A DNA stretch of 64,000 nucleotides, taken from positions 11,710 through 75,709 of the forward strand of contig JBLIMJ010000003.1 in the NCBI GenBank assembly GCA_047638595.1. The letters are read 5' to 3'. Below, in pieces: positions 2,307 to 42,909 of the stretch (within the stretch, counting starts at the first letter, position 1; every line of letters starts with the position of its first letter). The position numbers and the translations under genes are program-made. Source of the stretch: Acidimicrobiales bacterium. Its GTDB lineage: Bacteria > Patescibacteriota > Minisyncoccia > Phycocordibacterales > UBA918. The notes beneath the pieces were generated by a model. It searched no databases. It saw nothing but the letters and a program-made list of their open reading frames with translations, and was not told where the DNA came from.

Positions 2307-3632
2307 TTAGTACGATTTCAAACGCCGAGCTTTTTCATGCTGTCGAATCTTCTCAAGCGCTTTTGCCTCAATCTGTCGAATACGTTCACGCGTTACACCA
2401 AATTCACGCCCGACCTCTTCAAGTGTGTGATAAGTGCCATCAACCAGACCGTGCCTCATTTCAAGAATGCGTCGTTCTTTCTCTGAAAGAGTGTCAAGAA
2501 TTTCTTGAATTTGATCAGTGAGAATACTGTGTGACACTTCCTGATCAGGCGAAATCATCTTATCGTCAGAAATGAAGTCTGACAATCGCGACCGGTCATC
2601 ATCATCACCGATAGGAAGTTCCAATGAAATAGTGTCCTGACTAATTTTCTCAATCTGATACACTTTCTCTACCTCAATCCCCATCTCAGTAGCAATTTCT
2701 TCTGGCACAGGGTCACGGCCAAAATCTTGTGCGAGGCGTCGTGAGACCTGTTTGTACTTTGCCATGGTTTCAACCATGTGTACGGGAATACGAATCGTAC
2801 GTGACTGATCAGCGAGCGCTCGTGTAATTGCCTGACGAATCCACCACGTAGCATACGTAGAAAACTTAAATCCTTTCAAGTGGTCAAATTTATCAACCGC
2901 TTTAAAGAGTCCTAGGTTTCCTTCCTGAATCAGGTCCAGGAGAGTAAGGTCGGGTGAACGTCCTACATACTTCTTAGCAATAGAAACAACGAGCCGGAGG
3001 TTTGCTCGTGCAAGCAGATTTCGTGCTTCTTCATCTTCATCAAGAATCCTTTGTGCAAGATCGCGCTCTTCTTGAGCAGTAAGCAATGGGTACTGACCAA
3101 TCTCACGCAGATACATTTGGATAGAATCGTAGCCACTGTCATTACGTTTGTATGAATTTTTCTGTGCAAGTATCTCTATAGAAGGATCCGTACCAAGCAT
3201 GCCTCCGCTTGAGAGCACATCGATACCAGCAACTGAGAAGTTGTCATACATCTCCTCTAGGAAAGGTACCTCTTTCTCAATTTGAGGGAAGAATTTTAAA
3301 ATTTCATCATATGTGACGTAACCACGTTCACGTCCAAGTTTCATCAACTCAGATGATTTTGCCCGTTTAATTTTTTGCGTCTTAGTAAGTTTTTTCTTTA
3401 CGGGAGCTTTTTTTGCAACAGTTTTAGCGGCAGCTTTTTCTGCTGGCGCTTTTTTTGCTACGGCTTTTACTGGCTTCTTTGTAACTTTCTTTGCTACTAG
3501 TTTTTTGGCAGTTGTTTTTTTAGCTGTTGCCGTCTTTTTGACTGGCGTTTTTGCTACTGATTTTGTTGCCTTTTTGACGACTTTTTTGGTCGTTTTTTTC
3601 GCGATTTCTTTGGTTGCTTTTTTAACAGCCAT
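2307..3632 (-). CDS. rpoD: Primary RNA polymerase sigma factor (sigma-70/RpoD) with lysine/alanine-rich histone-H1-like N-terminal extension
   Basis: Regions 1.2-4.2 recognisable ('[27 protein letters not shown]', '[24 protein letters not shown]'). About 95 N-terminal residues of KKxxAKK repeats. Directly downstream of dnaG. Confidence 0.93.
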
Positions 3633-6000: not shown

Positions 6001-6059
6001 TCCACTCCTCAAAAATACCGCAATTAATTGAGGTATTCCTCCACACCTACACAACCCAT

Positions 6060-6083
6060 CTCCATATCATTGATGATATGGAG
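6060..6083. promoter_or_regulatory. 24-bp palindrome CTCCATATCAT-TG-ATGATATGGAG, candidate operator upstream of the TrpR-like gene
   Basis: Perfect inverted repeat. Its arms are identical to the terminator palindrome at 6583-6614. Confidence 0.5.
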
Positions 6084-6131: not shown

Positions 6132-6584
6132 ATGAGCACAAATCACAAAAAACTAAACTCTCGTAAAAAAGAACTTATTCTTGAAGCATTATATGCAGGT
6201 GTCAAAAGCATGCCCCAGGATAATTCTGTGGAGTATTTTATAAATACGTTACTCACTGAAAGTGAGAAAATAACAATTGGTCGCCGTATTCTTATCGCGC
6301 AAATGATACTCGCTGGAAAAACTCAGGCAGAAATACGATACATTCTTGGAGTGAGCCCAAACACTTTCACCCGTACACGCAAGTGGCTTAATAAGCAAAT
6401 ACCACACTACGATGATGCCATAAAGAAACATGCAGTTGAACAAATGGCAAGAGCAGTAAAGCGCAACGGAACAAGAAAGAAATATATAGACCCATTGAGT
6501 TTTACTGGATTACGGAAAAAATTTCCCATGCATTTTCTACTCTTTAACGTTGCTGAAGAGTTGATTGTAAAATTATCAAAATAA
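6132..6584 (+). CDS. TrpR-like / YerC-YecD family helix-turn-helix regulator
   Basis: 150 aa. 'ESEKITIGRRILIAQMILAGKTQAEIRYILGVSPNTFTRTRKWL' matches the Trp-repressor-related YerC/YecD HTH. Confidence 0.7.
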   Translation: MSTNHKKLNSRKKELILEALYAGVKSMPQDNSVEYFINTLLTESEKITIGRRILIAQMILAGKTQAEIRYILGVSPNTFTRTRKWLNKQIPHYDDAIKKHAVEQMARAVKRNGTRKKYIDPLSFTGLRKKFPMHFLLFNVAEELIVKLSK

Positions 6585-6620
6585 CTCTCCATATCATCAA
6601 TGATATGGAGAGTTATTTTG
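6583..6620 (+). terminator. Intrinsic terminator: 13-bp stem overlapping the stop codon, followed by ATTTTGTTT
   Basis: AACTCTCCATATCAT-CA-ATGATATGGAGAGTT then T-rich tract. Same arms as the upstream palindrome at 6060. Confidence 0.6.
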
Positions 6621-6628
6621 TTTGGTTA

Positions 6629-6658
6629 TTGCTTGATATCATTGATGATATCAAGCAA
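6629..6658. promoter_or_regulatory. 30-bp palindrome TTGCTTGATATCAT-TG-ATGATATCAAGCAA
   Basis: Perfect inverted repeat sharing the ATATCAT-NN-ATGATAT core. Confidence 0.45.
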
Positions 6659-6676: not shown

Positions 6677-6717
6677 ACACAAAAGACCGGCGCGTAGTGC
6701 CGGTCTTTTGTGTTTTT
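6677..6717. terminator. Bidirectional intrinsic terminator downstream of rpoC and repeat copy A
   Basis: ACACAAAAGACCGGC-GCGTAGT-GCCGGTCTTTTGTGTTTTT. Confidence 0.7.
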
Positions 6718-6768
6718 ACTCCCCTACTCAATCTTCCTTACTCTAGGAATTTTCAGATGATTCCAGAT

Positions 6769-6846
6769 GCGAGGAGCACAAGGAAAATAATTTGAGGCGT
6801 ACTTAGTGGTACGTTGAAAATTATTTTCCGTAGTGCGACGAAGCAG
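6769..6846 (-). repeat. Conserved ~80-nt palindromic 3'UTR repeat, copy A (after rpoC stop)
   Basis: About 85% identical to the copies at 16160-16241 and 40741-40822. Core GCGAGG..GGAAAATAATTTGAGGCGTAC..GTACGTTGAAAATTATTTT..CGAAGCAG. Confidence 0.8.
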
Positions 6847-6866
6847 ATGGGATTAGCTGTGGATTT

Positions 6867-9800
6867 CTATTTTTCTAGGGATTTGGACACAGCTTGAATC
6901 ATGTCGTACTTAGGCGACCCTTTAAATCCTGACCCTGCTGGAATCAGCTTACCAATAATCACGTTCTCCATAAGTCCTGCGAGATTATCTTGGCTTCCCT
7001 TTACTGCTGAGTTAATCAAAATACGAGTTGTATTTTGGAATGAAGCAGCTGAAAGGAACGACTTTCGCGATAGTGAACTTTCAGTAATACCCATAATGAG
7101 TTTATCAGCCTTTGCTTGTTCTTTACCTTCGGCCTTCAGCTTATTGTTTGCTTCAACAAAGATCCATTCTTCGATCACTTCACCTGGAGTAAAGTGACTG
7201 TCACCAGAAGCGTTTACCTTCACTCGTGACATCATTTGTTTCACAATAAGCTCAATGTGCTTTCGAGAGATAGTCACACCTTGTAGTTCGTAAATCTTAT
7301 TTACTTCAGAAATGATGTAGTCCTGTGTCTGCTCCTTAGTACCATACTTGAACAAGTCTGGTAGATAAGCAGAACCATCAGTCAACATCTGACCTCCAAC
7401 AACATTGTCTCCCTTAGATATTTTTACCACTCGTCGCCAATTTACTTCATACTCAATGACGTCTGACTTTTTCGGAGCGTACTGTGAAGTTTTATCAACT
7501 GCAACAGTAATGAATTTCTCACGTCCTTCTGTTCGAATCTCAGTTACAAAACCTGCAGTTTTAGAAATAATTGCTGGAATCTTCGGTAGTCGTTTTTCAA
7601 ATACTTCTTCTACACGAGGAAGACCTTGTGTAAGGTCACCACCTGCTGAAGATGTACCACCTGCGTGCTTGGTGTTCATCGTAAGCTGTGTACCCGGTTC
7701 ACCAATAGCTTGTGCTGCAATAGTTCCTACTGCTTCACCCATATCCACCAATGCATTGGTTGTAAGATCTACACCGTAACACTTCTGGCATACACCGCGT
7801 AATGTTGCGCAAGTCATCGGAGAACGAACCTCAACTGATTCACACGTACTTTCTTCAACAGATATAGCATCGCGTCGAGTAAGTAAGTGCCCTTTCTTGA
7901 ATATAACGTTATCTTTAGAGTCAACAATATTTGCAGCAATAACTCGTCCCTTCAATGCTTTTGCAAATGAAATCTCAATACCAGAAGCAGAAATGCGTCC
8001 GATATTTGTACTTTCTTTTGTTTTACAGTCTGACTCTGTAATGATAGCGTCCTGTGCAACAACAAAGAGTCGTCGTGTAAGATACCCAGCTTTTGCAGTT
8101 TGAAGTGCAGTGTCGGCAAGTCCTTTTCGAGAACCGTGGGTTGTCGTGAAATACTCAATTGGACTCATGCCCTCCTTCATAGAAGAAATAACGGGGAACT
8201 CAACTGTTTCACCTCGAGTGTTTACAATCAAACCTTTCATACCAACCATCTGAGCAATCTGGCGCATTGATCCACGCGCTCCAGACTTCCAAAGATCATA
8301 TGCTGAACCGTTATGATCCATGTGGTTTGGAATAATTTCTTCCAATTCACTCTTAGTTCTGTGCCAGATCTCAATAACCATTCGTCGACGTTCTTCTCGT
8401 GAGAGAAGTCCTTCTTCGAAGTTCTCTATAATTACTCGTTCCTCTGCTCGAGATTTTTCGATAATAGCGCCCTTCTCTGGTGGTATAACCACTTCATCGA
8501 TTCCCCATGTGGTACCAGAAACGGTTGCATATTTGAAACCAAACTTCTTAATTTTGTTTACCACACTTGGTACGATTTCAGTTCCTTGATCATCAATAAG
8601 GTCAAGTACTACGGCGAAGAGATCTCGTTGAGAAACTACTTCATTAATGTATCGATGATCACTTGGAAGTACCGAGTTGAAGAGAAGTCGTCCTACGGTT
8701 GTTTCAAATATCTGTCCCTCATACTGTGCATATTTAGCAGTATCTGTTGCAAGTACTTTAACTTTTGCTCGGAAATCTACAATATCGTAATCATATGCGT
8801 TAATCGCATCATTGGGAGATGCAAACCACTTTCCTTCTCCTTTTGCTCCTTCGATTTCTTTAGTCATCCAGAATGCTCCGAGTGCCATATCCATAAGTGA
8901 CTCAGATACTACAGGCTCACCTGATCCTGGCTTAAGTACATTCTTGTTTGCAGAAACAATTTCACGAGCTTCAGTCTGTGCTTCTTCAGACAATGGTACA
9001 TGTACCGCCATCTGGTCACCATCGAAATCAGCGTTAAATGCCTTACACACCAATGGATGAATCTGAATTGCATTACCTTCAATCAGTACCGGACGGAATG
9101 CCTGAATACCCTGTCGGTGCAACGTTGGCGCACGGTTAAGTAGTACATGCTTTTCAGCGATAACACCTTCAAGAATTGCCCATACTTCAGGTACACCGTC
9201 TTCAATAAGACGTCCTGCTCCACGGATGTTGTACGCGAGTTCTTGCCGGAGTAATTCTGAGATAACAAACGGTCGGAACAATTCCAGTGCCATGTGTTTT
9301 GGGAGACCACACTGATCAAGTTCAAGTTCTGGACCAATAACAATTACTGAACGTCCAGAATAGTCCACTCGCTTACCAAGCAAGTTCTGTCGAAAGTATC
9401 CCTGCTTACTTTTTAGGTAGTCAGAAAGAGACTTCAATGGTCGGCGTTGTGCCTGACTCATTGCTGAGTATGCAGTGTTCCCGTGACGAATAGAGTTGTC
9501 GATAAGGGCATCAACAGCTTCCTGCATGATTCGCTTCTCGTTACGTAAGATCACGTCTGGCGCCATGATGTCGATAAGCTTCTTCAAACGATTGTTTCGA
9601 TTGATGACGCGTCGATAAAGGTCGTTGAGGTCACTCGATGCGTGTCGTCCACCTTCAAGTGCAACCATTGGACGTAGTGCAGGTGGAATCACAGGAATTC
9701 TCTGGAGAAACATCCATTCAGGACGTACGTTAGCATGAATCAACCCTCGGATGAGGTTCAATCGTTTGTCGAGCTTTGTACGCTCAGCTACTCCTGCAGT

Positions 9801-10556: not shown

Positions 10557-13500
10557 TTAAACGTTGTCTTCTGACTGCGCTGGTAACTCTCGCTTCAGGT
10601 CAACATCAAGGGCAAGTCCTCGGAGTTGATTTACCAGAACGTTGAATGCTGCTGGCGTGTACGGGTGACCAATTGATTCTCCTCGAACAATCGAGTCAAA
10701 TGCTGCACTTCGTCCTACGATATCGTCTGACTTAATAGTGAGCATTTCACGAAGTGTGTACGCAGCTCCGTACCCAAGAAGTGCCCATACTTCCATTTCT
10801 CCAAATCGCTGTCCACCAATCTGAGCCTTACCTCCTAATGGCTGTTGGGTAATCAGTGAGTATGGACCTATTGAACGCATATGAATCTTGTCTTCCACCA
10901 TGTGATGAAGTTTCAAGATATACATATAACCAAGTGCTGTTCTTTGTTCAAATTTTTCACCAGTACGTCCATCTCGTAATTGTAGTTTTCCGTCTCTTGG
11001 GATACCAGCTTCTTCTAATTCATCTTTGATTTCATCTTCCGTTGCAGATGCAAACGGAGGTACAATAGCCTGATATCCAAGTGAGTGAGCAGCCATACCG
11101 AGGTGTAGCTCAAGGATCTGACCAAGGTTCATACGTGATGGCACACCAAGTGGTGTCAAAAGAATATCAACTGGACGTCCATCTTCTGTATAAGGCATAT
11201 CTTCTTCTGGAAGAATTCTTGAGATAACACCCTTGTTACCATGACGTCCTGCAAGCTTGTCACCTACAGATATATTTCGTACCTGTGCAACAGTGACAAG
11301 AATCTTCTTGATAACACCACTTTCTAGATTGTCTCCATTTTCACGAGAGAAAATCTTTACGCCAATTACTCGTCCTCTCTTTCCAGCCTGAAGTCGTAGT
11401 GAAGTATCTTTTACATCTTTAGCCTTTTCACCAAAGATAGATCGGAGTAATCGTTCTTCAGGAGTTAGTTGTGCTTCACCCTTTGGTGTTACCTTACCAA
11501 CAAGAATATCTCCAGGACGTACCTCTGCACCTACACGGATAATTCCGTTTTCGTCGAGGTTCCGAAGTTTCATTTCTGACACATTTGGGATATCTGGAGT
11601 TGTTACTTCAGGTCCAAGCTTTGTGTCTCGTACAGACACATCGAGTTCATCCAGGTGAATAGAAGCAAACTTACTTTTCTTCACAAGGCGTTCTGAAATA
11701 ATAATCGCATCCTCATAGTTCGCACCAGACCATGACATAAATGCTACCAGAGCATTTTGCCCTACCGCCATTTGACCATGATCAGTTGAGGTAGTGTCTG
11801 CAAGCAAGTCGCCTCGCAATAATTTATCTCCAACAGTTACCGCAGGTCGATGATAAAATGCTGAGAAATCGTTGGTTCGCTGGATAGTGGTCAATTCGTA
11901 TTCATCTTTCTTTCCGTCTTTTTTCTGAACTACGATGTGTGTTGCATCACATTCAATAACTTCACCAGCTTCACGGGCTACAAGAACACGTCCTGTATCT
12001 CGTGCAGCCAGTCCTTCAATACCAGTTCCTACAATCGGCGCCTCTGGGATAACACAAGGAGTCGCCTGCTTTTGCATGTTTGAACCCATCAATGTTCGGT
12101 TGGCGTCATCATGATTCAAAAATGGAATCATTGAGGTAGCCACAGAGAATGCCTGGTTGGTTGCAATATCCATGTAGTCAACATCTTTCCTTGCTACCAA
12201 TCGAGGCTCACCCTTACGACGTACTTCTACGTGATCAGGTGTAATTCTGCCCTTGCTATCTACTTCTACTGCAGCATGCGCAATAGTGAATGCTTCTTCC
12301 TCATGTGCGTTAAGATATATAATTTCGCCGGTTAAAATACCTTTCTCTACTTTTACGTATGGTGTTTCTATAATACCGAATCGGTTTACTCGAGCATACA
12401 TTGCAAGACGAAGAATCAAACCAATGTTCGGCCCTTCCGGAGTATGGATTGGGCAGAGTCGTCCGTAGTGTGATGTATGAACGTCACGCACTTCAAAACC
12501 AGCACGTTCTCGTGTCAATCCACCAGGACCAAGCGCTGAAAGTGTACGTAGCCCTTCAAGCTCTCCAAGCACGTTTTGCTGTGGCATGAACTGTGAAAGC
12601 TGGTTTGTGGTAAAGAATTCTTTAATCGCAGCCTGTAGTGGTCGTGGATTAAGAATCTGCATTGGGAGTGAGGTTTCTGCTTCAATAGTCGACATCCGGT
12701 CTTGAATGTTTCGCTTCATACGAGTCATACCAACTCGTACTCGCTGGATAGCCATTTCACCGAAGTATCGTACACGTCGAAATCCGAGGTGGTCGATATC
12801 GTCTGGCATAGCTCCAGGTGTATGGTTGAGTACCATAATGTTCCCAAGAATCAATCGGAAATCCTCAAGTGAGGTTGTTCGTTCATCGGTTGCCTTTTTA
12901 TCAACAGGCCGATCAAAACGACTATTGAAATGATGCCGTCCGATTTCTGAAAGATCGTACCGTTCAGGAGAAAAGATGGAGTTTACAAACTCCTTTGCGT
13001 TATCTACGGTCGCAAGATCACCATCTCGCAGACGTTTATAGACTTCAACATATGAATCATCAGTCGTTTTTGCTGGATCTTTTTCAAGTGTTGCTTTGAT
13101 GTACTCCTCACCTCGCTCTACATCGCTAAAGAGCTTAATCATATCTTCATCTTTCTCAACGCCTAATACGCGGAGAAGTGAAGTGATAGGCACTTTCTTC
13201 TTTCGATCAATTTTAATGTAAATGATTCCATCCGCCTCAGACTCAATTTCAATCCATGCACCACGTGCAGGAATTATTTTTGCTCCAAAGTATGTTTTAC
13301 CCTTAATGTCTTGGGACGTGAAGAAGATACCGTAACTTCGTGCAAGTTGTGGCACCACTACTCGCTCAACACCATTAATGATGAATGTTCCATGATCAGT
13401 CATCACAGGAATATCCGCCAAGAAAATTTCCTGATCCTTTGCGGAATCAAAAGTTTTGTTCTTTAAGACTACTGTTGCACGCAATGGTGCATCATACGTA

Positions 13501-16017: not shown

Positions 16018-16087
16018 ATGTATTTAGTCTACCAGTAAATAAGTACTAAACATCTGTTTATTAACAAAAAAGTGTTCTAGATAAAAC

Positions 16088-16115
16088 AAAAACGGCCGAA
16101 GGCCGTTTTTGTTTT
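16088..16115. terminator. Bidirectional intrinsic terminator
   Basis: AAAAACGGCC-GAA-GGCCGTTTTTGTTTT. Confidence 0.7.
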
Positions 16116-16159
16116 AGTCACTCCTCTTCATCATTTGAAGAATAGAAATGAGATGAAAT

Positions 16160-16241
16160 ACGAGGCGCGTGAGGAAAATAATGTGAGACGTACATTGAGT
16201 ACGTTGAACATTATTTTACCGAACTGCAACGAAGTAGTTCG
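16160..16241 (-). repeat. Conserved ~80-nt palindromic 3'UTR repeat, copy B (after khpA stop)
   Basis: Aligns with copies A and C. Flanked by the short inverted repeat TTTGAAGA / TCTTCAAA. Confidence 0.8.
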
Positions 16242-16246
16242 CTCGT

Positions 16247-16624
16247 TTATATCTTCAAATCGTCGATGGCGTCGTCTAGGGACTTAGGCTCCGGCGCTAT
16301 CTCCTCCCCTACACTCATGGCTTCTCCTGTATCACTTCCGCCACCCTCTTCGGTAGCATCTGCTGTTACCACACGCCCACCTTCTGGTTCGTTAATCTTT
16401 AAATTAACTCGTGCGTCATTCTTCATTCCTACCACTCGAAGTAGTGTTCGGATAGCCTTTGCGGTATTACCTGAACGTCCAATAATCTTACCCATGTCGT
16501 CAGCATGTACATCAAGTGTAAGAAGCACACCCATCTCATCTACTGTTCGATTAACTTTTACGCTGTCTGGGTTATCTACCAATGAAGTAACTACAATCTC
16601 TAGAAATTTCTGATCATCTTGCAT
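16247..16624 (-). CDS. khpA: KH-domain RNA-binding protein (KhpA/YlqC family) with acidic C-terminal extension
   Basis: 'GKIIGRSGNTAKAIRTLL' KH GxxG motif. Sits in the conserved position between rpsP and trmD. Confidence 0.8.
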   Translation of the reverse strand: MQDDQKFLEIVVTSLVDNPDSVKVNRTVDEMGVLLTLDVHADDMGKIIGRSGNTAKAIRTLLRVVGMKNDARVNLKINEPEGGRVVTADATEEGGGSDTGEAMSVGEEIAPEPKSLDDAIDDLKI

Positions 16625-16756: not shown

Positions 16757-17296
16757 TTACGCTTTATCTTCCTCTGTTTTTGCTTCTTCTGCTGGAATTT
16801 CTGATTTTACTTCAGCTTTAGGTTCCTCTGGAGTTTCCTCAGCAGGAGTTTCAGATTCTTCAGGAGTTTCCACAGCTTCAAGAACTGATTCTTCTTCTTT
16901 AGTTTCTTCAGCTGGAGTTTCTTCTGCTACTTCTTCTACAGGAGCTTCAGCCTCTGCTTTTGCTGCTTCTTCAGCAGCTTCCTCTTCTTCCTTCTTTTTT
17001 GCAAGGGCTTCTTCGTCTACAATAGGTGATTTCCGCGGAAGAGGGTTAATAGTCTTCGCATCAATCACTTTTTGTTTAACGAGAATGTTGTGCACGGTAT
17101 CTGAAGGCTGCACACCCTTTGAAAGCCAATCTGTAGCCGCCTCCGCATCAAGCTGAATGTGGCTCATCTTTGGATTGTAAGATCCAATGATTGCTACATG
17201 CTTGTTACTCTTGGGACCAGTTCGCTTATCAGTCACCACAATACGATAACTAGGATCGTTTTTGCGGCCGACTCGTTGTAATCTCATCATTAACAT
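16757..17296 (-). CDS. rpsP: 30S ribosomal protein S16 with long E/A/K-rich C-terminal tail
   Basis: 'MLMMRLQRVGRKNDPSYRIVVTDKRTGPKSNKHVAIIGSYNP' is a canonical S16 N-terminus. Start at ATG 17296. The upstream extension in the ORF track is probably spurious. Confidence 0.9.
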   Translation of the reverse strand: MLMMRLQRVGRKNDPSYRIVVTDKRTGPKSNKHVAIIGSYNPKMSHIQLDAEAATDWLSKGVQPSDTVHNILVKQKVIDAKTINPLPRKSPIVDEEALAKKKEEEEAAEEAAKAEAEAPVEEVAEETPAEETKEEESVLEAVETPEESETPAEETPEEPKAEVKSEIPAEEAKTEEDKA

Positions 17297-17439
17297 ATAA
17301 ATATAAAATTTATACAAATTTCGCTCGTTCGGACATGGATAAATAAATTTACCCGCGTCACTCACTTGCTCATTTGTAACGGTCGCAACAATACTACATA
17401 TACATGTCTTTGGCAACATATATAAGCCTCTATAAAAAC

Positions 17440-17610
17440 AACAGCCCAAACTGAGGGCTGTAAACGGCATTGTATTCCACCTGAAGGTACTCAATCCAGA
17501 CGGATTAGGTAATGCTCTATAACATAAACGTTTCAGTCAAGGTACGCGGTTGCTGCCGCGCCGTAACCTACTTTATTCAAGAAATATTACTATTACCTAA
17601 TCCGCCCCAA
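17440..17610 (-). ncRNA. Candidate small RNA: 13-bp inverted repeat enclosing a GC-rich core, ending in a hairpin plus U-tract
   Basis: Arms CGGATTAGGTAAT (17511-17523) and ATTACCTAATCCG (17592-17604). Hairpin CAGCCC-AAACTGA-GGGCTG (17442-17461) followed by TTGTTTTTAT on the minus strand. No plausible CDS. Confidence 0.35.
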
Positions 17611-21403: not shown

Positions 21404-21753
21404 TTAATTACATCTGGCCAACTGCCATGGTTTCTTAAATTTATGCAGCCAGGGGGTACAGCATGCAAGTACGTAAAGTACTCATTCGTGCGGTTTCCTC
21501 TGGTGATGCCGAGAGAAATTCGCCCTTAATCAATTACCTAAACCTTATGAGAAAGGTTCTATTCAAAAATACCAGACAGAAGTAGATACACTGTCTGAAG
21601 ATAGAAACTCGATTGTTGTCACTATCAGCACAATGTTTGAGGTAAGACGGATACGAGAAATACTCGCAACATCTCAAACAGAAACAGTGGAAGTATCTTG
21701 TCCAAATGAGGTCACCTTCAAGGCGACACATTGCAACAAGCAGCAGAATGAAC

Positions 21754-21810
21754 AAGCCGGTTTGGAAAATAGTTTTAAGAAACTATTTTCCAAACCGGCT
21801 TTATTTATCC
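21754..21810 (+). terminator. 22-bp perfect-stem hairpin plus TTATTTAT
   Basis: AAGCCGGTTTGGAAAATAGTTT-TAAG-AAACTATTTTCCAAACCGGCTT. Terminates an otherwise unannotated region. Confidence 0.5.
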
Positions 21811-25243: not shown

Positions 25244-25948
25244 TTACCAGTTTTTTGCTTCAAGGGCATTCTCAGCAGCAGCTTGTTCTGCTTCTTGTTT
25301 TGCACGTCCGGTACCTTCTGCAATTTTTCCTTCTCCTAAAAATACACCAACAGTAAATACCCTATCGTGGTCTGGTCCCACTTGTGCAAGAGTTTCGTAT
25401 GTTGGTGTTGTATTTTTATTTTCCTGAGCCAATTCCTGAAAACGACTTTTAGCATCTTGCCACAGCCGTTTCTCAACAATTTTTTCTGTTTTTGGGAACA
25501 AGTGGTCAGCAATAAATTTCTGCGATGCATCATATCCTTGGTCTATATACAGTGCACCAATAAGCGCTTCAAACGCATTAGCGAGAATATACTGTCGCGC
25601 GCGACCTGTATCTTTTGCTTCTCCTTTGGACATCAGTAAGAAATCATTGATACCCAACTTACCTGATGCGTCCGCAAGCGACACCGTATTCACTAATGCA
25701 GCACGAACGGCAGTAAGTTCTCCTTCAGGTTTTTCTGGGTACTTCTTAAAGAGGAAATCGGTCACCACCAACTCAAGCACCGCATCACCAAGAAATTCTA
25801 AGCGTTCGTTATGGTCTTGCTTTGCGTCACGGTTTTCGTTTAAAAACGATCTGTGCGTCACCGCAGTAAGGAGGTTTATTTTTTCATTAAAGGTGAAGCC
25901 TAATAATGTTTCAATTTTGGATACGTCTATATTTTGTTCATCTGCCAT
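25244..25948 (-). CDS. rnc: Ribonuclease III
   Basis: 'ERLEFLGDAVLELVVTDFLF' RNase III signature plus C-terminal dsRBD. Confidence 0.93.
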   Translation of the reverse strand: MADEQNIDVSKIETLLGFTFNEKINLLTAVTHRSFLNENRDAKQDHNERLEFLGDAVLELVVTDFLFKKYPEKPEGELTAVRAALVNTVSLADASGKLGINDFLLMSKGEAKDTGRARQYILANAFEALIGALYIDQGYDASQKFIADHLFPKTEKIVEKRLWQDAKSRFQELAQENKNTTPTYETLAQVGPDHDRVFTVGVFLGEGKIAEGTGRAKQEAEQAAAENALEAKNW

Positions 25949-26096: not shown

Positions 26097-26221
26097 TAGT
26101 GTCGAAGAAATAGAGTGCATTTCAAGGCATGCAAGGGATTTTACTTGAGTGGGGCGCACAGCCCAGCGAAAGTAAAATTGCCGCAGCATAACGCTGAAAG
26201 GCGCCTATTTCTTCGACACTA
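26097..26221 (-). promoter_or_regulatory. Structured RNA element in the rnc leader / intercistronic region: 17-bp perfect closing stem around a ~90-nt multi-hairpin insert
   Basis: Arms TAGTGTCGAAGAAATAG (26097-26113) and CTATTTCTTCGACACTA (26205-26221). Internal sub-hairpins GATTTTACTT/AAGTAAAATT, GGGC-GCACA-GCCC and CAGC-ATAAC-GCTG. The 3' arm begins at the upstream gene's stop codon. Confidence 0.55.
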
Positions 26222-27098
26222 ACATTGTGATGGCTTTGGTCACGATAGGTAGTATATCCTCATAGAAATTCAATTCAAGAATATCTGCCACTTTAAACCA
26301 TTGTGCATCATCAAGTCCTCCTTTGTTCTCAAGCTTCAGTTCTGAGTGTGGTGCGCTTGCAAGAAAGTAAGTAACTTGTTTTCGAACCTTGCCGAGCTCA
26401 GGATGAGATGCAACATATTCGTTGTGACCAAGTTCCGCCTCAATAGTAATATCAGCATCAATTTCTTCTTTTAGCTCACGGACAGCACCCGCTTCCACCG
26501 TTTCTCCTTCCTCAATCTTACCTTTTGATAACGTCCAATGACCAAAAATATCATGTACGAGTGCTAGATACATCACCTCATCATCCATCGCATATACCAC
26601 AGCTCCTGCCAGACGCTGGATAGGCATTTCGTCAAAAGGCACAGCTTTCTTTCGCTTTCCTTGTTCCTCTTTTCCCGGTTCACCAATTTCTTTATATACT
26701 GCACCAAGTACCCCATTTACAAATCGACTACTGTTCTCACCTCCAAACTGTTTCGCAAGCTCAATAGCTTCATTGATAGCAACTTTCGCGGGTACTTCTT
26801 TTCGGTCCGCAAACAAAAGCTCATAAAGTCCTAAGCGTAGGATGTTTCTATCTACTGGTGAAATACGATCAATAGGCCACTCGGGAGCAGCTTTTTCAAT
26901 AACCTGATCTAGTTCTGATTGCTTACCAAGAACCCCATCGAGAAGTTTCTCAATGAAAGGATTGTCGGTTTTATTTGGAGCGAATTCTTCTACATTACGT
27001 TCCAGCACCTCGAGAGTTCCTTTTTTATCTATATCGTTTAAATCCCACTCAAAGAGTGTCTGGAGAACGATTGACCGTGATAAATGTCGATTTGCCAT
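26205..27098 (-). CDS. nusB: NusB (transcription antitermination) fused to a C-terminal NUDIX hydrolase domain
   Basis: N-terminal ~145 aa is NusB-like ('MANRHLSRSIVLQTLFEWDLN...', 'RNILRLGLYELLF'). C-terminal ~150 aa carries the Nudix box 'GKIEEGETVEAGAVRELKEEIDADI'. Confidence 0.75.
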   Translation of the reverse strand: MANRHLSRSIVLQTLFEWDLNDIDKKGTLEVLERNVEEFAPNKTDNPFIEKLLDGVLGKQSELDQVIEKAAPEWPIDRISPVDRNILRLGLYELLFADRKEVPAKVAINEAIELAKQFGGENSSRFVNGVLGAVYKEIGEPGKEEQGKRKKAVPFDEMPIQRLAGAVVYAMDDEVMYLALVHDIFGHWTLSKGKIEEGETVEAGAVRELKEEIDADITIEAELGHNEYVASHPELGKVRKQVTYFLASAPHSELKLENKGGLDDAQWFKVADILELNFYEDILPIVTKAITMLVSKK

Positions 27099-34743: not shown

Positions 34744-34821
34744 GTGGGCCTGTTTGTGCATGAAACACGAAAAAACTCACCCTAGGGTGAGTTTTTTCGT
34801 GTCATCAATTTTATGAGAAGA
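34744..34821. terminator. Two adjacent terminator hairpins (convergent)
   Basis: CCCACAGCAGCGTCTGCTCTGTGGG and CACGAAAAAACTCACCC-TA-GGGTGAGTTTTTTCGTG. Confidence 0.7.
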
Positions 34822-34826
34822 CTCTT

Positions 34827-37010
34827 TTATGAAACAGCTTTCACTGCTTTCATAATTGCCATTTTGACAGCTGATGCTTCATCAGTATATGTACCGTCAA
34901 GTGCACCAGTGAGTGCCATAATAGCTTCTTCAAGTTGTTCACTTGAGATAGATAATACCGCAGTAGTAAGCATGTTTGATACCAGCACCTCTTCTCCTTT
35001 ACGAGATCGGTACACTGCATCAAGGTCAGCTGCCGCGTCAGCAAGTGCAATCATTGGGCGATGAGCAATCAATTGATATGCTGCAACGATATTCCCTGTA
35101 GTAATTGCTTCTGCAAGAGAACCTGCTGTTACTACTTCCGTTTGGGTTTCAACTTCTTGTTCTGCAGCATCATCAGTGACAAGTGATTCCATGCGTGCAA
35201 GATTTAATACCATCCAACCACCTTCACTTGGGAATAGTGTCTTTGCTTGCGCTAATACTGCATCAAGTTTTTCATTTCGTGTTTCTCCAGCTTCCGTTGC
35301 ATTCATGAAGAATCGCATCGCATCACTTGAAAGAAGTGCCTTTTGTGCATGTGCACGATTTTCTAATTCTGACATTTCAATTGACTCATCAGTTTCATCA
35401 CCAATTGTTTCTTCGGCTGCTGCATATTCTACTACAGGAGTTGTAATGGGAAAATCTACAGGTACTGCTTCTGCTACTGCAGAATGTACGTAGTTTTCTG
35501 CTTCTGACTGCATAGAATCATCAGATGCTTCTATACCCATATCTGTAAATGTTGTATGTTCGTGCGCACCTGCTAATGATATTCCTCCAATTGAATCTCG
35601 ACGAACAACTAATACATATGATACAAACAATCCCCAAATAGTTAGTATTGTGTAGAAAATGAGGGTCAGTGCAGGGCCAGCTTCAAAACCAGTATATGGT
35701 ACTTGTGTAAGTGAGATACCTGCAACAAGTGGATCATGTGTACGTGCTTCAAGGACCGTCACCTGATTTTCAACGTCAACTTCTACTTCACATTCTTTTT
35801 CCCTAGTACCTCGCTTTGAAAGTAAAGTGTATTTTGTATCTTTGGTAGGCTTTAATTTCATTGAACCGTCAAATTCAGAACTTTTTTTAGTATCAACTAA
35901 TACATTTCCATGGTTATCAGTAAGCTTTACTTCTTTTGCTCGTGAAGTGTCCCATGTAAGAGTAATAGTTTCTCCTTTTTTGATTTTACTATCAGAGATA
36001 TCAAGATCACAGCGTGGCGTTGAGGATCCTCCACCACCTCCTCCTCCGGTTGCTACATCGATAGATAGAGGGCATTCAATTGAGTCACTTCCTGAATATG
36101 CAGTGAGTATGTAAGTAGCATCAGCTCCAACACGCACTGTCTCAGTATCAGAAAGATTAGTAGAAGCAACTCCATTAATTGAAATAGAATCAATGTCTGT
36201 AGTAGTCCATGTTAGGGTAACGTCTCCACCACCTGTTGGAAGTGCATAATCGCTAGAAGCGAACGTTACGTTGTTAGCACAGGTGAATATTTCTGGATTT
36301 GCAACGGTAATAGTGAGTGGACAAGTCACATCAGCAAAGCCTACTTTGGATGCGGTAAGAATATAAGTAATTGTGTTCGCTACATTCACACTTGTAGAAC
36401 CATCTTCTGCAACCGTACCAACACTGTTGTTGATTGAGACACTGTCAGCATCTGTTGTTGTCCAAGTCAGAGTTGCTGCCCCTCCTCCAGCCGGCAAGGA
36501 GGTAGGTGAAGCTGTAAATGAATCACAACTAGGGGCAGAAGATATTTCCACAACATCAATTGGAGCTGAACAAGTTACAGAACCAACAGTGTTGGTTACT
36601 GTTAAGGTGTAGGTAATGTCAGCAGTTACAGTAACTGCTGCTGAACCATTAACAGCCACAGATCCAACTCCATTGTCGATTGATGTTGTATCTGCATTTG
36701 TAGTGGTCCACGATAGAGTTGACGCCCCACCACCAACAGGTAGTGACGACGGTGATGCTGTAAATGCGCTACAGGTAGGTAACGGGTCGGGTGTGGGATC
36801 AGGAGTTGGATCAGGAGTTGGATCAGGGTCTCCACAACCACCACAGCCACCATCATCTCCACCTCCACCGTCACCATCACCACCGCCAAATGCGGAAACA
36901 ACAGACATGTCGAGTGCAAAGTTATTCGAAAATAGCACTGGCGTTGCAAATGCAAGGACAGCAAAAACAGTAGCAATAAGCAGTCCTGTAGTAATATTTT
37001 TTGTAAACAT
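34827..37010 (-). CDS. Large surface protein: signal peptide, G/D-rich and (DPTP)n linker, four tandem Ig-like repeats, TM helix, C-terminal cytoplasmic domain
   Basis: Start taken at ATG 37010 ('MFTKNITTGLLIATVFAVLAFATPVLFS'). Four ~90-aa repeats each begin with Cys ('C.AFTASPSSLP.GGGA.TL.WTTT.AD..SI'). 'VPYTGFEAGPALTLIFYTILTIWGLFVSYVLVVRRD' looks like a sorting signal, but ~270 aa follow it. Confidence 0.75.
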   Translation of the reverse strand: MFTKNITTGLLIATVFAVLAFATPVLFSNNFALDMSVVSAFGGGDGDGGGGDDGGCGGCGDPDPTPDPTPDPTPDPLPTCSAFTASPSSLPVGGGASTLSWTTTNADTTSIDNGVGSVAVNGSAAVTVTADITYTLTVTNTVGSVTCSAPIDVVEISSAPSCDSFTASPTSLPAGGGAATLTWTTTDADSVSINNSVGTVAEDGSTSVNVANTITYILTASKVGFADVTCPLTITVANPEIFTCANNVTFASSDYALPTGGGDVTLTWTTTDIDSISINGVASTNLSDTETVRVGADATYILTAYSGSDSIECPLSIDVATGGGGGGGSSTPRCDLDISDSKIKKGETITLTWDTSRAKEVKLTDNHGNVLVDTKKSSEFDGSMKLKPTKDTKYTLLSKRGTREKECEVEVDVENQVTVLEARTHDPLVAGISLTQVPYTGFEAGPALTLIFYTILTIWGLFVSYVLVVRRDSIGGISLAGAHEHTTFTDMGIEASDDSMQSEAENYVHSAVAEAVPVDFPITTPVVEYAAAEETIGDETDESIEMSELENRAHAQKALLSSDAMRFFMNATEAGETRNEKLDAVLAQAKTLFPSEGGWMVLNLARMESLVTDDAAEQEVETQTEVVTAGSLAEAITTGNIVAAYQLIAHRPMIALADAAADLDAVYRSRKGEEVLVSNMLTTAVLSISSEQLEEAIMALTGALDGTYTDEASAVKMAIMKAVKAVS

Positions 37011-40584: not shown

Positions 40585-40620
40585 AAAAACAGGCACGTCC
40601 CTAGGGACGTGCCTGTTTTT
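40585..40620. terminator. Bidirectional intrinsic terminator
   Basis: AAAAACAGGCACGTCCC-TA-GGGACGTGCCTGTTTTT. Confidence 0.8.
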
Positions 40621-40660
40621 ATGTTTCCTATTTTAGAATTATCTATCTCTATCTAAAACT

Positions 40661-40705
40661 TGAGTTTGGAATGGAATGCGAGACATGTGAAGAAAATTCT
40701 TGCTA
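40661..40705 (-). repeat. Partial (5'-part) copy of the 3'UTR repeat
   Basis: TGGAATGGAATGCGAGACATGTGAAGAAAATTCTTGC resembles GGAATGAAATGCGAGGCGCAGGAGTAAAATAATTTG. Confidence 0.5.
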
Positions 40706-40716
40706 GATGTCGATTT

Positions 40717-42909
<2,193 letters not shown>

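What the first reader, a model, noticed from the sequence alone, without database searches (positions are those of the whole stretch)
6769..6846. Conserved ~80-nt palindromic repeat in the 3'UTRs of rpoC, khpA and gyrB, always between the stop codon and a separate bidirectional terminator
Three copies are present: 6769-6846, 16160-16241 and 40741-40822. They are about 85% identical over ~80 nt. The consensus is GCGAGGCGCAGGAGTAAAATAATTTGAGGCGTACTTGAGGTACGTTGAAAATTATTTTACCGAACTGTAACGAAGCAGTTCG. On the mRNA (minus) strand each begins within 0-5 nt of the stop codon. It can fold as a small hairpin (CGAACUG-CUUCGUUA-CAGUUCG) plus a long imperfect hairpin (AAAAUAAUUU..GUAC/GUAC..AAAUUAUUUU). A distinct canonical intrinsic terminator follows 40-120 nt further downstream each time. 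Copy C is bracketed by a perfect 17-bp inverted repeat (GATATTTAAAAAATGGA / TCCATTTTTTAAATATC). Copy B is bracketed by TTTGAAGA / TCTTCAAA. A truncated copy sits next to copy C (40661-40705). Conserved sequence with differing flanks points to a dispersed element (MITE/REP-like) or a shared 3'UTR functional RNA module on highly expressed genes, rather than independently evolved terminators. Either reading would be new for this lineage.
Basis: seen in the sequence. Interest (0 to 1): 0.75.

Follow-up and report, generated by a model that had tools for sequence, protein, structure and literature searches.

The report
Stop-codon hairpin repeat of Paceibacteria
A previously undescribed family of 110-130-base hairpin-forming repeats sits directly behind the stop codons of housekeeping genes in a group of tiny uncultured bacteria, keeps its shape through many compensating mutations, and, oddly, folds best on the DNA strand opposite to the gene.

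Summary
The window, from a Paceibacteria (Patescibacteria/CPR) genome, holds four copies, not three. A fourth copy (26099-26219, after a nusB-NUDIX gene) is only about 50% identical and was found through its structure. A covariance model found 35 copies in about 330 kb from related metagenomic genomes. In the model-fitted alignment of 25 copies, 94% of cells pair and 25 of 32 pairs show changes on both sides. Three conserved purine-rich internal loops interrupt the stem. The base of the hairpin usually pairs the stop codon and last codons of the upstream gene with an inverted copy of them.

Nearly all copies lie 0-22 nt after a stop codon, in one orientation relative to that gene. Some lie inside operons (atpG-element-atpD). 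Copies are gained, lost, stacked in tandem and replaced between close relatives. The selected fold belongs to the strand antisense to the gene (RNAalifold -35.9 versus -17.4 kcal/mol; G·U pairs 143 versus 43). Rfam 15, phage and plasmid collections gave no match.

Best reading: a new REP/REPIN-like structured repeat, recognised as a single strand and carried along in 3'UTRs. The mechanism is unresolved.

The parts
6744..6869 (+). Copy A, full hairpin including outer arms. It lies behind rpoC, and the complement of the rpoC stop codon (CTA, 6867-6869) is in the 3' arm. The strand given is the better-folding one. The element is co-transcribed with rpoC on the - strand.
   Evidence: cmsearch 125.9 bits. 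The outer arm TAGGAATTTTCAG / CTGTGGATTTCTA pairs 12 of 13 positions (read). RNA fold -51 to -60 kcal/mol on + versus -29 on -.
16134..16259 (+). Copy B, behind the KH-domain (khpA-like) gene of the rpsP-khpA-...-trmD cluster. The stop complement TTA is at 16247-16249.
   Evidence: cmsearch 116.2 bits. It carries a G-C pair where most copies have U-A (alignment column 53/80). Orthologous copies are in L034 and L038.
26099..26219 (+). It lies behind a NusB-NUDIX fusion gene (26205-27098, -) and 150 nt upstream of rnc (RNase III, 25244-25948, -). Its 15-bp perfect outer arms GTGTCGAAGAAATAG / CTATTTCTTCGACAC contain the last four codons and the TAG stop.
   Evidence: cmsearch 64 bits, E about 1e-15. 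It is about 50% identical to A-C, but the helices are compensated and the GA/GA loop is kept.
40717..40839 (+). Copy C, behind gyrB. The 17-bp perfect outer arms are at 40717-40733 and 40823-40839. The stop complement TTA is at 40831-40833.
   Evidence: cmsearch 123.5 bits. Fold. Orthologous copy in L043.
40655..40702 (+). Truncated older copy: only the 5' half in the + orientation, on the side of copy C away from gyrB.
   Evidence: Sequence read; alignment. In L043 the same position holds a complete second copy of another subtype. L046 and L047 carry that subtype alone.
40703..40714 (-). Relic direct duplicate of the gyrB end. It reads ATCGACATCTAG on the - strand, compared with the live end ATTGATATTTAA. 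It lies between copy C and the truncated older copy.
   Evidence: Read. L043 has the matching relic ATCGATATCTAA at the same place.
6681..6717 (.). Canonical bidirectional intrinsic terminator downstream of copy A. It is shared with the convergent TrpR-like gene.
   Evidence: Sequence AAAAGACCGGCGCGTAGTGCCGGTCTTTTGTGTTTTT.
16087..16115 (.). Canonical bidirectional terminator downstream of copy B.
   Evidence: Sequence ACAAAAACGGCCGAAGGCCGTTTTTGTTTT.
40585..40620 (.). Canonical bidirectional terminator downstream of copy C and its truncated neighbour.
   Evidence: Terminator scan.
34797..34829 (-). Empty site. The 3' end of the 854-aa gene has only about 30 nt between its stop and the terminator here. 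The orthologous gene carries a copy in L043, L046 and L032.

Best explanation
This is a new family of dispersed, non-coding, structure-defined hairpin repeats of Paceibacteria. In lifestyle it is closest to REP/REPIN elements. Each copy is a 110-130-nt imperfect hairpin. Its helices vary freely by compensating changes. Three purine-rich internal loops are conserved: a tandem GA/GA loop and two GA/GNA loops.

Copies lodge directly behind the stop codon of a gene, in one orientation. Their base extends into an inverted copy of the gene's last codons and stop.

Shown:
- The family exists.
- The fold is under selection.
- Position and orientation are fixed relative to the upstream gene.
- Copies are gained, lost, stacked and replaced.
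- The fold under selection is that of the strand complementary to the mRNA.

Inferred:
- The partner that recognises the conserved loops acts on a single strand of that polarity. This is most plausibly single-stranded DNA seen by a strand- and structure-specific enzyme, as for REP-RAYT, IS200/IS605 ends or integron attC bottom strands. That enzyme would propagate and maintain the copies.
- The outer arms grow by template switching across the hairpin. Selection allows only the non-coding side to be overwritten.
- Because every copy is transcribed with its gene, the mRNA also carries a weaker hairpin (-25 to -62 kcal/mol) that encloses the stop codon. This may act as a 3'-end barrier or an RNase III substrate.
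For: Family and structure:
- 35 copies with E below 1e-10.
- 94% of cells paired, against 35-50% when partners are slid. 25 of 32 pairs have changes on both sides. 0 of 500 shuffles reach the observed values.
- Copy D and the L046/L047 subtype share the loops but not the helix sequences.
- The conserved unpaired bases are all purines.

Strand:
- Every one of the 25 copies tested folds better in the antisense orientation.
- RNAalifold gives -35.9 versus -17.4 kcal/mol.
- G·U pairs number 143 versus 43 overall, and 86 versus 32 in the outer part of the hairpin that includes the locus-specific arms.
- Known deamination biases of the sense and leading strand would give the opposite asymmetry (inference).

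Position and orientation:
- About 21 of the first 25 copies lie 0-22 nt behind the stop of a gene on the opposite strand. Of the other four, three are outer members of tandems and one (L030) is reversed.
- L034 has two copies in opposite orientation, each following its own gene, so orientation tracks the gene and not replication.
- The stop codon is paired in about 18 of 22 gene-adjacent copies.

Dynamics:
- gyrB site: occupied in the window, L043, L046 and L047; empty or decayed in L044, L045, L048 and L049. L048 keeps an 11-nt fragment identical to part of the L046 copy.
- 854-aa gene site: empty in the window, occupied in L043, L046 and L032.
- Tandem or truncated copies occur in the window, L015, L027, L028, L032, L035 and L043.
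- A relic direct duplicate of the gene end lies beside copy C and beside its L043 orthologue.
- The type-1 core is nearly identical in MAGs labelled Kaiserbacteria and in the window's clade, while diverged subtypes coexist within one genome.

Non-autonomous: no transposase, integrase or reverse transcriptase was found among the 48 window ORFs scanned.
Against: - No cognate enzyme was identified, and whole genomes could not be searched.
- With DNA energy parameters the strand asymmetry shrinks to 1-6 kcal/mol. The G·U signal therefore looks more like RNA than DNA.
- No known single-strand DNA mechanism explains an orientation locked to transcription and an insertion point at stop codons.
- Orthologous copies persist and evolve by compensating changes in place (L033/L039; L043/L032, including a TAA-to-TAG change mirrored in the distal arm). 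This fits a host function at least as well as a selfish element.
- Copy number per genome is unknown. Four per 64 kb extrapolates to only tens per genome.
Confidence: 0.42

Rival explanations
1. A host cis-acting RNA element in the mRNA itself, in the 3'UTR or between cistrons. The long hairpin that encloses the stop codon would act in one of three ways. It could block 3'-to-5' exonucleases. It could be an RNase III processing or retroregulation site. It could modulate termination and ribosome release, as reported for REP sequences within about 15 nt of stop codons in E. coli (my recollection of Liang and Deutscher; I could not retrieve the paper).
For: - Strict placement 0-22 nt after stop codons, in the transcription orientation of the gene.
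- Occurrence upstream of the real terminators and inside operons, for example atpG-element-atpD-element in L039.
- Hosts are housekeeping genes: rpoC, gyrB, khpA, atpG, atpD-like, ftsA-like, rny, hup.
- Copies are retained at orthologous sites with compensating changes, including the stop codon pair.
- The genome encodes RNase III and RNase R, and copy D lies just upstream of rnc.
- The sense strand still folds at -25 to -62 kcal/mol.
Against: - The evolutionary signal points to the other strand. In the sense orientation the commonest state of several 'pairs' is a C·A mismatch (for example column 24/202), and the conserved loops are all-pyrimidine.
- Close relatives do without the element at the same genes.
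- Stop-codon hairpins are not a general feature of genes in the window: 8 of 50.
Confidence: 0.27
2. The functional molecule is an RNA of the antisense polarity. It would be either a small structured RNA or an orientation-specific barrier that stops antisense or divergent transcription from entering the 3' end of important genes.
For: - The better fold, G·U tolerance, purine-rich conserved loops and purine-rich composition all belong to this strand.
- The asymmetry is large with RNA parameters but small with DNA parameters.
- U-rich tracts follow the hairpin on this strand in many copies.
- One copy, L030 12199-12331, lies in this polarity in the likely 5' leader of the HU gene.
Against: - No promoter-like site precedes the element on that strand.
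- In the window a strong bidirectional terminator sits about 20-100 nt upstream on that strand. This leaves little room for a promoter at copies A and B and blocks read-in.
- The 5' arm differs at every locus, so it cannot carry a conserved promoter.
- About 14 of 24 copies have no convergent gene that could supply transcripts.
Confidence: 0.13
3. A functionless long palindrome. It would be kept paired by intramolecular template switching (quasi-palindrome correction) and tolerated only in the small neutral space between stop codon and terminator.
For: - Perfect 15-18-bp outer arms that copy the gene end (C, D, L043) are best explained by a DNA-level copying process.
- Frequent tandem copies, truncations and deletions.
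Against: - Template switching would make loops pair. Instead the same unpaired purines are kept in 22-25 of 25 copies, across subtypes whose helices share no sequence.
- It does not explain the strand asymmetry.
- It does not explain the fixed orientation: 33 of 35 copies by my tally.
Confidence: 0.1
4. Ordinary intrinsic terminators that happen to resemble each other, or a local duplication within this genome.
For: The elements are hairpins at gene ends. A-rich and U-rich runs flank some copies.
Against: - Separate canonical terminators follow copies A, B and C.
- Some copies lie between cistrons of one operon.
- The family occurs in many MAGs with a conserved interior and strong covariation.
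Confidence: 0.03

Closest known systems
REP / REPIN elements (mobilised by RAYT, a Y1 HUH transposase)
   Same: Extragenic, non-coding, hairpin-forming repeats dispersed through a genome. They are usually found in 3'UTRs and between cistrons. Structure, not exact sequence, is kept. They are recognised as single-stranded hairpins, are non-autonomous and are often clustered. A REPIN is a roughly 100-nt long hairpin. (RAYT/REP features as described in PMC2817692.)
   Different: - No invariant GT(A/G)G head.
- One long hairpin with a conserved interior, not two short REPs.
- Strict single orientation relative to the upstream gene, instead of alternating orientations.
- The base pairs with the stop codon.
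- No RAYT found in the DNA available.
- Modest density: 4 per 64 kb.
Integron attC sites
   Same: Imperfect hairpins of 57-141 nt placed directly behind, and often overlapping, the stop codon of an ORF in a fixed orientation. Sequence is poorly conserved and structure is conserved. The strand that folds and is recognised is the one complementary to the coding strand. The apical part can be short or long and branched (compare L028 296-508). These attC properties are from my own knowledge.
   Different: - The R''/R' core sites RYYYAAC/GTTRRRY are absent. The conserved AAC lies on the 3' side, inside an internal loop.
- The genes are core housekeeping genes, not cassettes.
- No integron integrase or attI in the window.
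Transcribed palindromic MITEs (Correia/NEMIS of Neisseria, ERIC of enterobacteria)
   Same: 100-150-nt palindromic repeats that are co-transcribed with neighbouring genes and fold into long hairpins in mRNA. In those systems the hairpins are cut by RNase III or alter mRNA stability in an orientation-dependent way (my own knowledge).
   Different: Those elements have conserved terminal inverted repeats and a TA target duplication, and they insert in both orientations. Here the termini are locus-specific copies of the gene end, the interior is conserved, and the orientation is fixed.
Lambda sib-type 3' retroregulators and other RNase III sites in 3'UTRs or between cistrons
   Same: A long imperfect hairpin downstream of a coding region that could decide the fate of the upstream mRNA. 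RNase III is encoded in the window.
   Different: Those are single-locus elements selected on the sense strand. Here a multi-copy family shows its selection signal on the antisense strand.

Membership tests
REP/REPIN-RAYT | Short (20-40 nt) imperfect palindrome with a conserved 5' GT(A/G)G head | tested here: not met
   The alignment of 25 copies shows no invariant GTAG. GTAG occurs in some copies at columns 195-199 only. The unit is one 110-130-nt hairpin.
REP/REPIN-RAYT | A RAYT (Y1 transposase) gene in the genome, flanked by the repeats | tested here: inconclusive
   No transposase-like domain among the 48 window ORFs scanned. None is listed among the called genes of L043-L052. Whole genomes could not be searched.
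REP/REPIN-RAYT | Extragenic, hairpin structure conserved by compensating changes, many copies per genome | tested here: met
   All copies are intergenic. Covariation. Four copies in 64 kb and 35 in about 330 kb; copy number per genome could not be measured.
MITE (TIR-bounded, DDE transposase-derived) | Conserved terminal inverted repeats at the element ends, with a variable interior | tested here: not met
   The outer arms differ at every locus and copy the local gene end. The interior core and loops are what is conserved.
MITE (TIR-bounded, DDE transposase-derived) | Short direct target-site duplication flanking each copy | tested here: inconclusive
   A 12-nt relic direct duplicate of the gene end flanks copy C and its L043 orthologue. 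No consistent duplication was seen at other copies.
Integron attC | R'' (RYYYAAC) and R' (GTTRRRY) core sites pairing at the base of the hairpin | tested here: not met
   Read from the alignment. These boxes are absent. GTTGAAA occurs in the 3' arm but faces TTTGAGG.
Integron attC | Placed behind the ORF stop in fixed orientation, with the strand complementary to the ORF being the one that folds | tested here: met
Integron attC | Part of a cassette array next to an integron integrase and attI | tested here: not met
   The flanking genes are rpoC, gyrB, khpA, atpG, atpD and similar. No integrase in the window.
Intrinsic (Rho-independent) terminator | G+C-rich stem immediately followed by a U tract, marking the end of the transcription unit | tested here: not met
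   The terminator scan does not call the long hairpin itself. It reports only the inner sub-hairpin of B and C, in the + (antisense) direction. Separate canonical terminators follow A, B and C. Some copies lie between cistrons of the atp operon.
Any Rfam 15 RNA family | Match to a curated covariance model at the gathering score | tested here: not met
   The only hit in the window is a tRNA. The permissive search over copy C gave only far-sub-threshold miRNA-precursor models, meaning generic long hairpins.

The most novel reading that the evidence does not exclude
The element may be the footprint of an unknown strand-specific mobile system in CPR bacteria. In this system a folded single strand (DNA or RNA) of fixed polarity would be inserted exactly at the end of a coding region. 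Insertion would duplicate the gene's last codons and stop, both directly and in inverted form, so that the gene stays intact. This would be a gene-end-targeting hairpin element, comparable in logic to attC/integrase or REP/RAYT but with a different site and partner. The one copy in the leader of the HU gene and the tandem G·A loops raise the further possibility that a nucleoid or RNA-binding protein reads these hairpins.
Probability: 0.15. Interest if true: 0.85.

Novelty: new variant of a known kind. Interest (0 to 1): 0.66.

Why it matters
Patescibacteria/CPR make up a large share of bacterial diversity. They have tiny genomes and almost no described non-coding elements or mobile repeats. 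This finding is a well-supported structured element, with a covariance model, 35 copies and heavy covariation, that is absent from Rfam.

It has an unusual combination of properties. It abuts stop codons, its orientation is locked to the gene, its base is built from an inverted copy of the gene's own end, and its selection signal lies on the antisense strand.

If it acts on mRNA, it is a lineage-wide device for controlling housekeeping gene output in organisms with few regulators. If it is a mobile single-strand element, it points to an undiscovered enzyme with gene-end specificity. In either case the model allows these elements to be annotated in thousands of MAGs. The orientation rule gives a concrete puzzle that can be tested with existing metatranscriptomes.

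Tried and rejected
- Rfam at gathering and permissive thresholds: nothing relevant.
- Viral contigs, INPHARED phages and PLSDB plasmids: no copy.
- Promoter scans on both strands around all four window copies and the L030 copy: no convincing promoter for an antisense RNA.
- Recoding or read-through. The distance from stop to core varies from 31 to 49 nt with no frame preference. In-frame read-through peptides are similar only for B and C. Rejected.
- Small ORFs within or after the element on the + strand (6901, 16266, 40841). They have no ribosome-binding site and are not conserved at copy D. Judged to be chance antisense ORFs.
- Orientation set by replication. Rejected because L034 has two copies in opposite orientation, each following its own gene.
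- Mutation bias as the cause of the G·U asymmetry. Known sense-strand and leading-strand C-to-T biases predict the opposite sign (inference).
- 'All genes here have stop-codon hairpins'. Not so: 8 of 50 genes, and mean folding energy equals that of internal control windows.
- Group II intron domain V. GAGCCGUA/UACGGU resembles it, but there is no bulge, no intron and no intron-encoded protein. Rejected as chance.
- Kink-turn or TIGR-Tas-type box C/D. The tandem G·A pairs lack the 3-nt bulge, and the copies are dispersed, not arrayed (the TIGR paper appeared). Not pursued.
- HU link. Four rny-hup loci were examined. The element is in the HU leader only in L030. L052 has a copy behind rny, L051 has one behind hup, and L050 has none there. 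There is no consistent association.
- The exact-protein look-up for the window's GyrB failed, although an identical protein, P0001, is in the protein collection.

Full report
**Source and setting**

The window is about 42% G+C, with most genes on the - strand. Its proteins are divergent housekeeping proteins. GyrB and KhpA fall below the NCBIfam equivalog cut-offs, PheT is shortened, and there is a NusB-NUDIX fusion. The closest GyrB homologues that carry an informative taxon name are labelled Candidatus Pacebacteria or Paceibacterota. The organism is therefore a member of the Paceibacteria (Patescibacteria/CPR).

**Checking the observation**

They lie behind rpoC, a KH-domain khpA-like gene and gyrB. 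Pairwise identities are 75-87%. The 43-nt core is not expected by chance.

The bracketing inverted repeats around B and C are real. They are the outermost part of the element's own hairpin. Each contains the complement of the gene's stop codon and last codons.

**A family, not three copies**

One exact-pattern scan of a species-representative genome collection found true relatives in four Patescibacteria MAGs, three of them labelled Kaiserbacteria, among 25 chance hits. One scan of metagenome contigs added twelve loci.

I built a covariance model from 17 copies. It then found further, more divergent copies:
- A fourth copy in the window at 26099-26219, at 64 bits and E about 1e-15.
- Copies in syntenic loci fetched through GyrB and HU homologues.

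In total, 35 copies score below E = 1e-10 in about 330 kb. Copy D is only about 50% identical to A-C. It nevertheless has the same architecture with different helix sequences.

**Structure**

RNAalifold and the model agree on a single long hairpin. On the model-fitted alignment of 25 copies:
- 94% of cells form standard pairs, against 35-50% when partners are slid by 1-3 columns.
- 25 of 32 pairs show changes on both sides.
- No shuffle out of 500 reaches the observed values.

The alignment was fitted to the model, which favours the structure. However, the first, model-free MAFFT alignment already showed 13 of 32 pairs with double changes.

The helices are interrupted by three internal loops whose bases are nearly invariant and all purines. 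These are a symmetric GA/GA loop next to the apical helix and two GA/GNA loops further out, plus conserved A/G residues at columns 35, 190 and 193-194.

One copy, L028 296-508, carries an insertion of about 80 nt in the apical loop that appears to form additional hairpins.

**Position and orientation**

Of the first 25 copies, about 21 lie 0-22 nt behind the stop codon of a gene encoded on the opposite strand. Here 'opposite' is relative to the orientation in which the model is written, which is the window's + strand. Of the other four, three are the outer members of tandem pairs and one (L030) is reversed.

The host genes include rpoC, khpA, gyrB, atpG, an atpD-like gene, an ftsA-like gene, a pilC-like gene, rny, hup and an RNase R-like gene.

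Several copies lie between cistrons, for example atpG-element-atpD-element in L039 and two consecutive genes in L016 and L036. So the element is not the terminator. In the window, separate canonical terminators follow A, B and C but not D.

L034 holds two copies in opposite orientation, each behind its own gene (khpA and the RNase R-like gene). Orientation therefore follows the gene and not the replication direction.

Two copies depart from the rule:
- L030 12199-12331 is reversed. It lies between rny and the HU gene, 39 nt before the HU start.
- L051 14822-14953 abuts a conserved non-coding region of unknown nature.

**The stop codon is part of the hairpin**

I folded each gene-adjacent copy with 25 nt of extra flank. 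The complement of the stop codon falls inside the main stem in about 18 of 22 cases.

The distal arm is an inverted copy of the gene's last codons and stop:
- 17 bp perfect in copy C.
- 15 bp perfect in copy D.
- 18 bp perfect in L043.
- Imperfect, with G·U pairs, in copies A and B and in L043 17922.

Between the orthologous copies of L043 and L032, the stop codon differs (TAA versus TAG) and the distal arm differs in the matching way. Stop-codon hairpins are not a general property of genes in this window: 8 of 50 genes have one, and mean folding energy equals that of internal controls.

**Which strand folds**

This was the unexpected result. Five lines of evidence agree:
- Every one of the 25 copies tested folds more stably in the orientation antisense to the upstream gene. 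For copy A the values are about -60 versus -29 kcal/mol.
- The consensus energy is -35.9 versus -17.4 kcal/mol.
- G·U pairs in the main hairpin number 143 in that orientation against 43 in the mRNA sense.
- In the outer part of the hairpin, which includes the locus-specific arms that evolved separately at each site, the counts are 86 versus 32.
- In the sense orientation the commonest state of some 'pairs' would be a C·A mismatch, and the conserved loops would be all-pyrimidine.

The usual deamination biases of the sense and leading strand would produce the opposite asymmetry (inference). With DNA energy parameters the difference falls to 1-6 kcal/mol.

I could not find a way for an antisense RNA to be made. 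No promoter-like site precedes the element on that strand. In the window a bidirectional terminator lies about 20-100 nt upstream of it on that strand, closest at copies A and B.

**Gain, loss and replacement**

At the gyrB 3' end:
- The window and L043 (91% GyrB identity) carry the type-1 element.
- L043 also carries a complete copy of a second subtype on the distal side. The window has only a truncated remnant of it there.
- L046 and L047 (90% and 89%) carry only that second subtype.
- L048 (88%) keeps an 11-nt fragment identical to part of the L046 copy.
- L044, L045 and L049 (84-86%) have unrelated short hairpins.

Beside copy C and beside its L043 orthologue lies a relic direct duplicate of the gene end (ATCGACATCTAG and ATCGATATCTAA). 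The order is: gene end, arm, element, arm', inverted gene end, relic gene end, older copy. A new copy therefore arrived next to the stop codon together with both a direct and an inverted duplicate of the last codons.

The site behind the 854-aa gene is empty in the window but occupied in L043, L046 and L032. Tandem or truncated copies, always on the distal side, also occur in L015, L027, L028, L032 and L035.

The type-1 core is nearly identical in MAGs with different taxonomic labels, while diverged subtypes coexist within one genome. This suggests spread or concerted evolution more than sequence constraint.

None of the 48 window ORFs scanned against Pfam or NCBIfam has a transposase, integrase or reverse-transcriptase domain.

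**Interpretation**

Four things are firmly shown:
- A new, structurally constrained hairpin family exists.
- It is attached to gene ends with a fixed polarity.
- Its copies turn over between relatives.
- The constraint acts on the strand complementary to the mRNA.

The mechanism is inferred. I favour, at 0.42, a REP/REPIN-like element whose conserved loops are read on a single strand by a strand- and structure-specific protein that maintains and spreads the copies. In this reading the outer arms are produced by template switching across the hairpin. The sense transcript carries a weaker stop-codon-enclosing hairpin as a side effect, or as a secondarily useful feature such as an exonuclease barrier or RNase III substrate.

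The rivals are:
- A genuine mRNA 3'UTR element (0.27). It is well supported by position, polarity and retention, but contradicted by the strand signal.
- An antisense-polarity RNA (0.13). It is supported by the fold but has no visible way of being transcribed.
- Functionless palindromes kept paired by template switching (0.10). This is contradicted by the conserved unpaired purines, the asymmetry and the fixed orientation.
- Plain terminators (0.03).

**Comparison with known systems**

The lifestyle resembles REP/REPIN (features in PMC2817692). The defining GT(A/G)G head, the short-palindrome unit and the alternating orientations are absent, and no RAYT was seen.

Three features match integron attC sites: the element lies behind the stop, its polarity is fixed, and the folding strand is the one complementary to the ORF. 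But the R''/R' boxes, the cassette context and the integrase are missing.

Correia and ERIC-type MITEs are transcribed palindromes. They have conserved termini and insert in both orientations, the reverse of what is seen here.

I therefore class this as a new variant of the known kind 'dispersed extragenic hairpin repeat', not as a member of any named family.

**Limits**

- Only one scan each of the genome and metagenome collections was possible, and both used exact patterns taken from the type-1 core. The sample is therefore biased towards that subtype.
- No whole genome could be searched, and no expression data were available.
- The report of REP sequences near stop codons causing ribosome stalling is cited from memory. 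I could not retrieve the paper.

Noticed in passing
window 6059-6083, 6586-6610, 6631-6655 and 6577-6620: Three copies of a 25-nt palindrome (TCTCCATATCATYRATGATATGGAG) flank the TrpR-like gene at 6132-6584 (+). A perfect 20-bp hairpin lies right after that gene. These are probably operator sites of this repressor and are unrelated to the element studied.
   Followed up: partly
L050 18673-19041, L051 14793-15325, L052 15609-16050: A conserved non-coding region of 370-440 nt lies between the CCA-adding enzyme gene and an ExoIII-like gene in three Paceibacteria loci. It contains invariant blocks such as CAGGGTTTATTGTATCGGACATCTAATC and TGTAAAGGAC. It has no Rfam or ARAGORN hit and is a candidate unannotated RNA gene. 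In L051 a copy of the hairpin element sits at one end of it.
   Followed up: partly
L028 296-508: A copy of the element has an apical loop expanded by about 80 nt, and the insertion appears to form three extra hairpins. A weaker, divergent copy lies next to it at 531-660.
   Followed up: no
L030 12199-12331: This is the only clearly reversed copy. It lies between rny and the HU gene, 39 nt before the HU start codon. The likely HU leader would therefore carry the strongly folding strand. A TATAAT box lies about 50 nt upstream of it.
   Followed up: partly
window 26205-27098 (-) and 25244-25948 (-): A NusB-NUDIX fusion protein gene is followed by copy D and then by rnc (RNase III). A long hairpin just upstream of rnc recalls the RNase III autoregulatory leader of E. 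coli.
   Followed up: no
window 16757-17494 (-), 2307-3632 (-), 43570-45504 (-): The S16 ORF is 245 aa, with the S16 domain only at residues 70-143 and internal repeats in the remainder of the ORF. rpoD has tandem repeats within its coding region (3393-3587). PheT is only 644 aa and lacks the usual N-terminal part.
   Followed up: no
proteins P0009, P0016, P0082 (GyrB homologues): Some GyrB homologues in this clade are 1120-1132 aa long and carry an intein domain (PF14890).
   Followed up: no
window 21733-21800: A long near-perfect hairpin (AACAAGCCGGTTTGGAAAATAGTTT..AAACTATTTTCCAAACCGGCTT) lies between the MFS transporter gene and the next + strand gene. It gives a weak hit to the model only because it is a long hairpin, and it is probably a terminator.
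   Followed up: no
L044 about 12056-12076, L048 about 12068-12100, L045 about 12071-12110 (just after gyrB): Relatives that lack the element at gyrB still have a short hairpin that pairs or abuts the gyrB stop codon, for example ATAGATATTT(T)AAATATCTAT in L044. This may be a footprint of a lost copy or a pre-existing target.
   Followed up: partly
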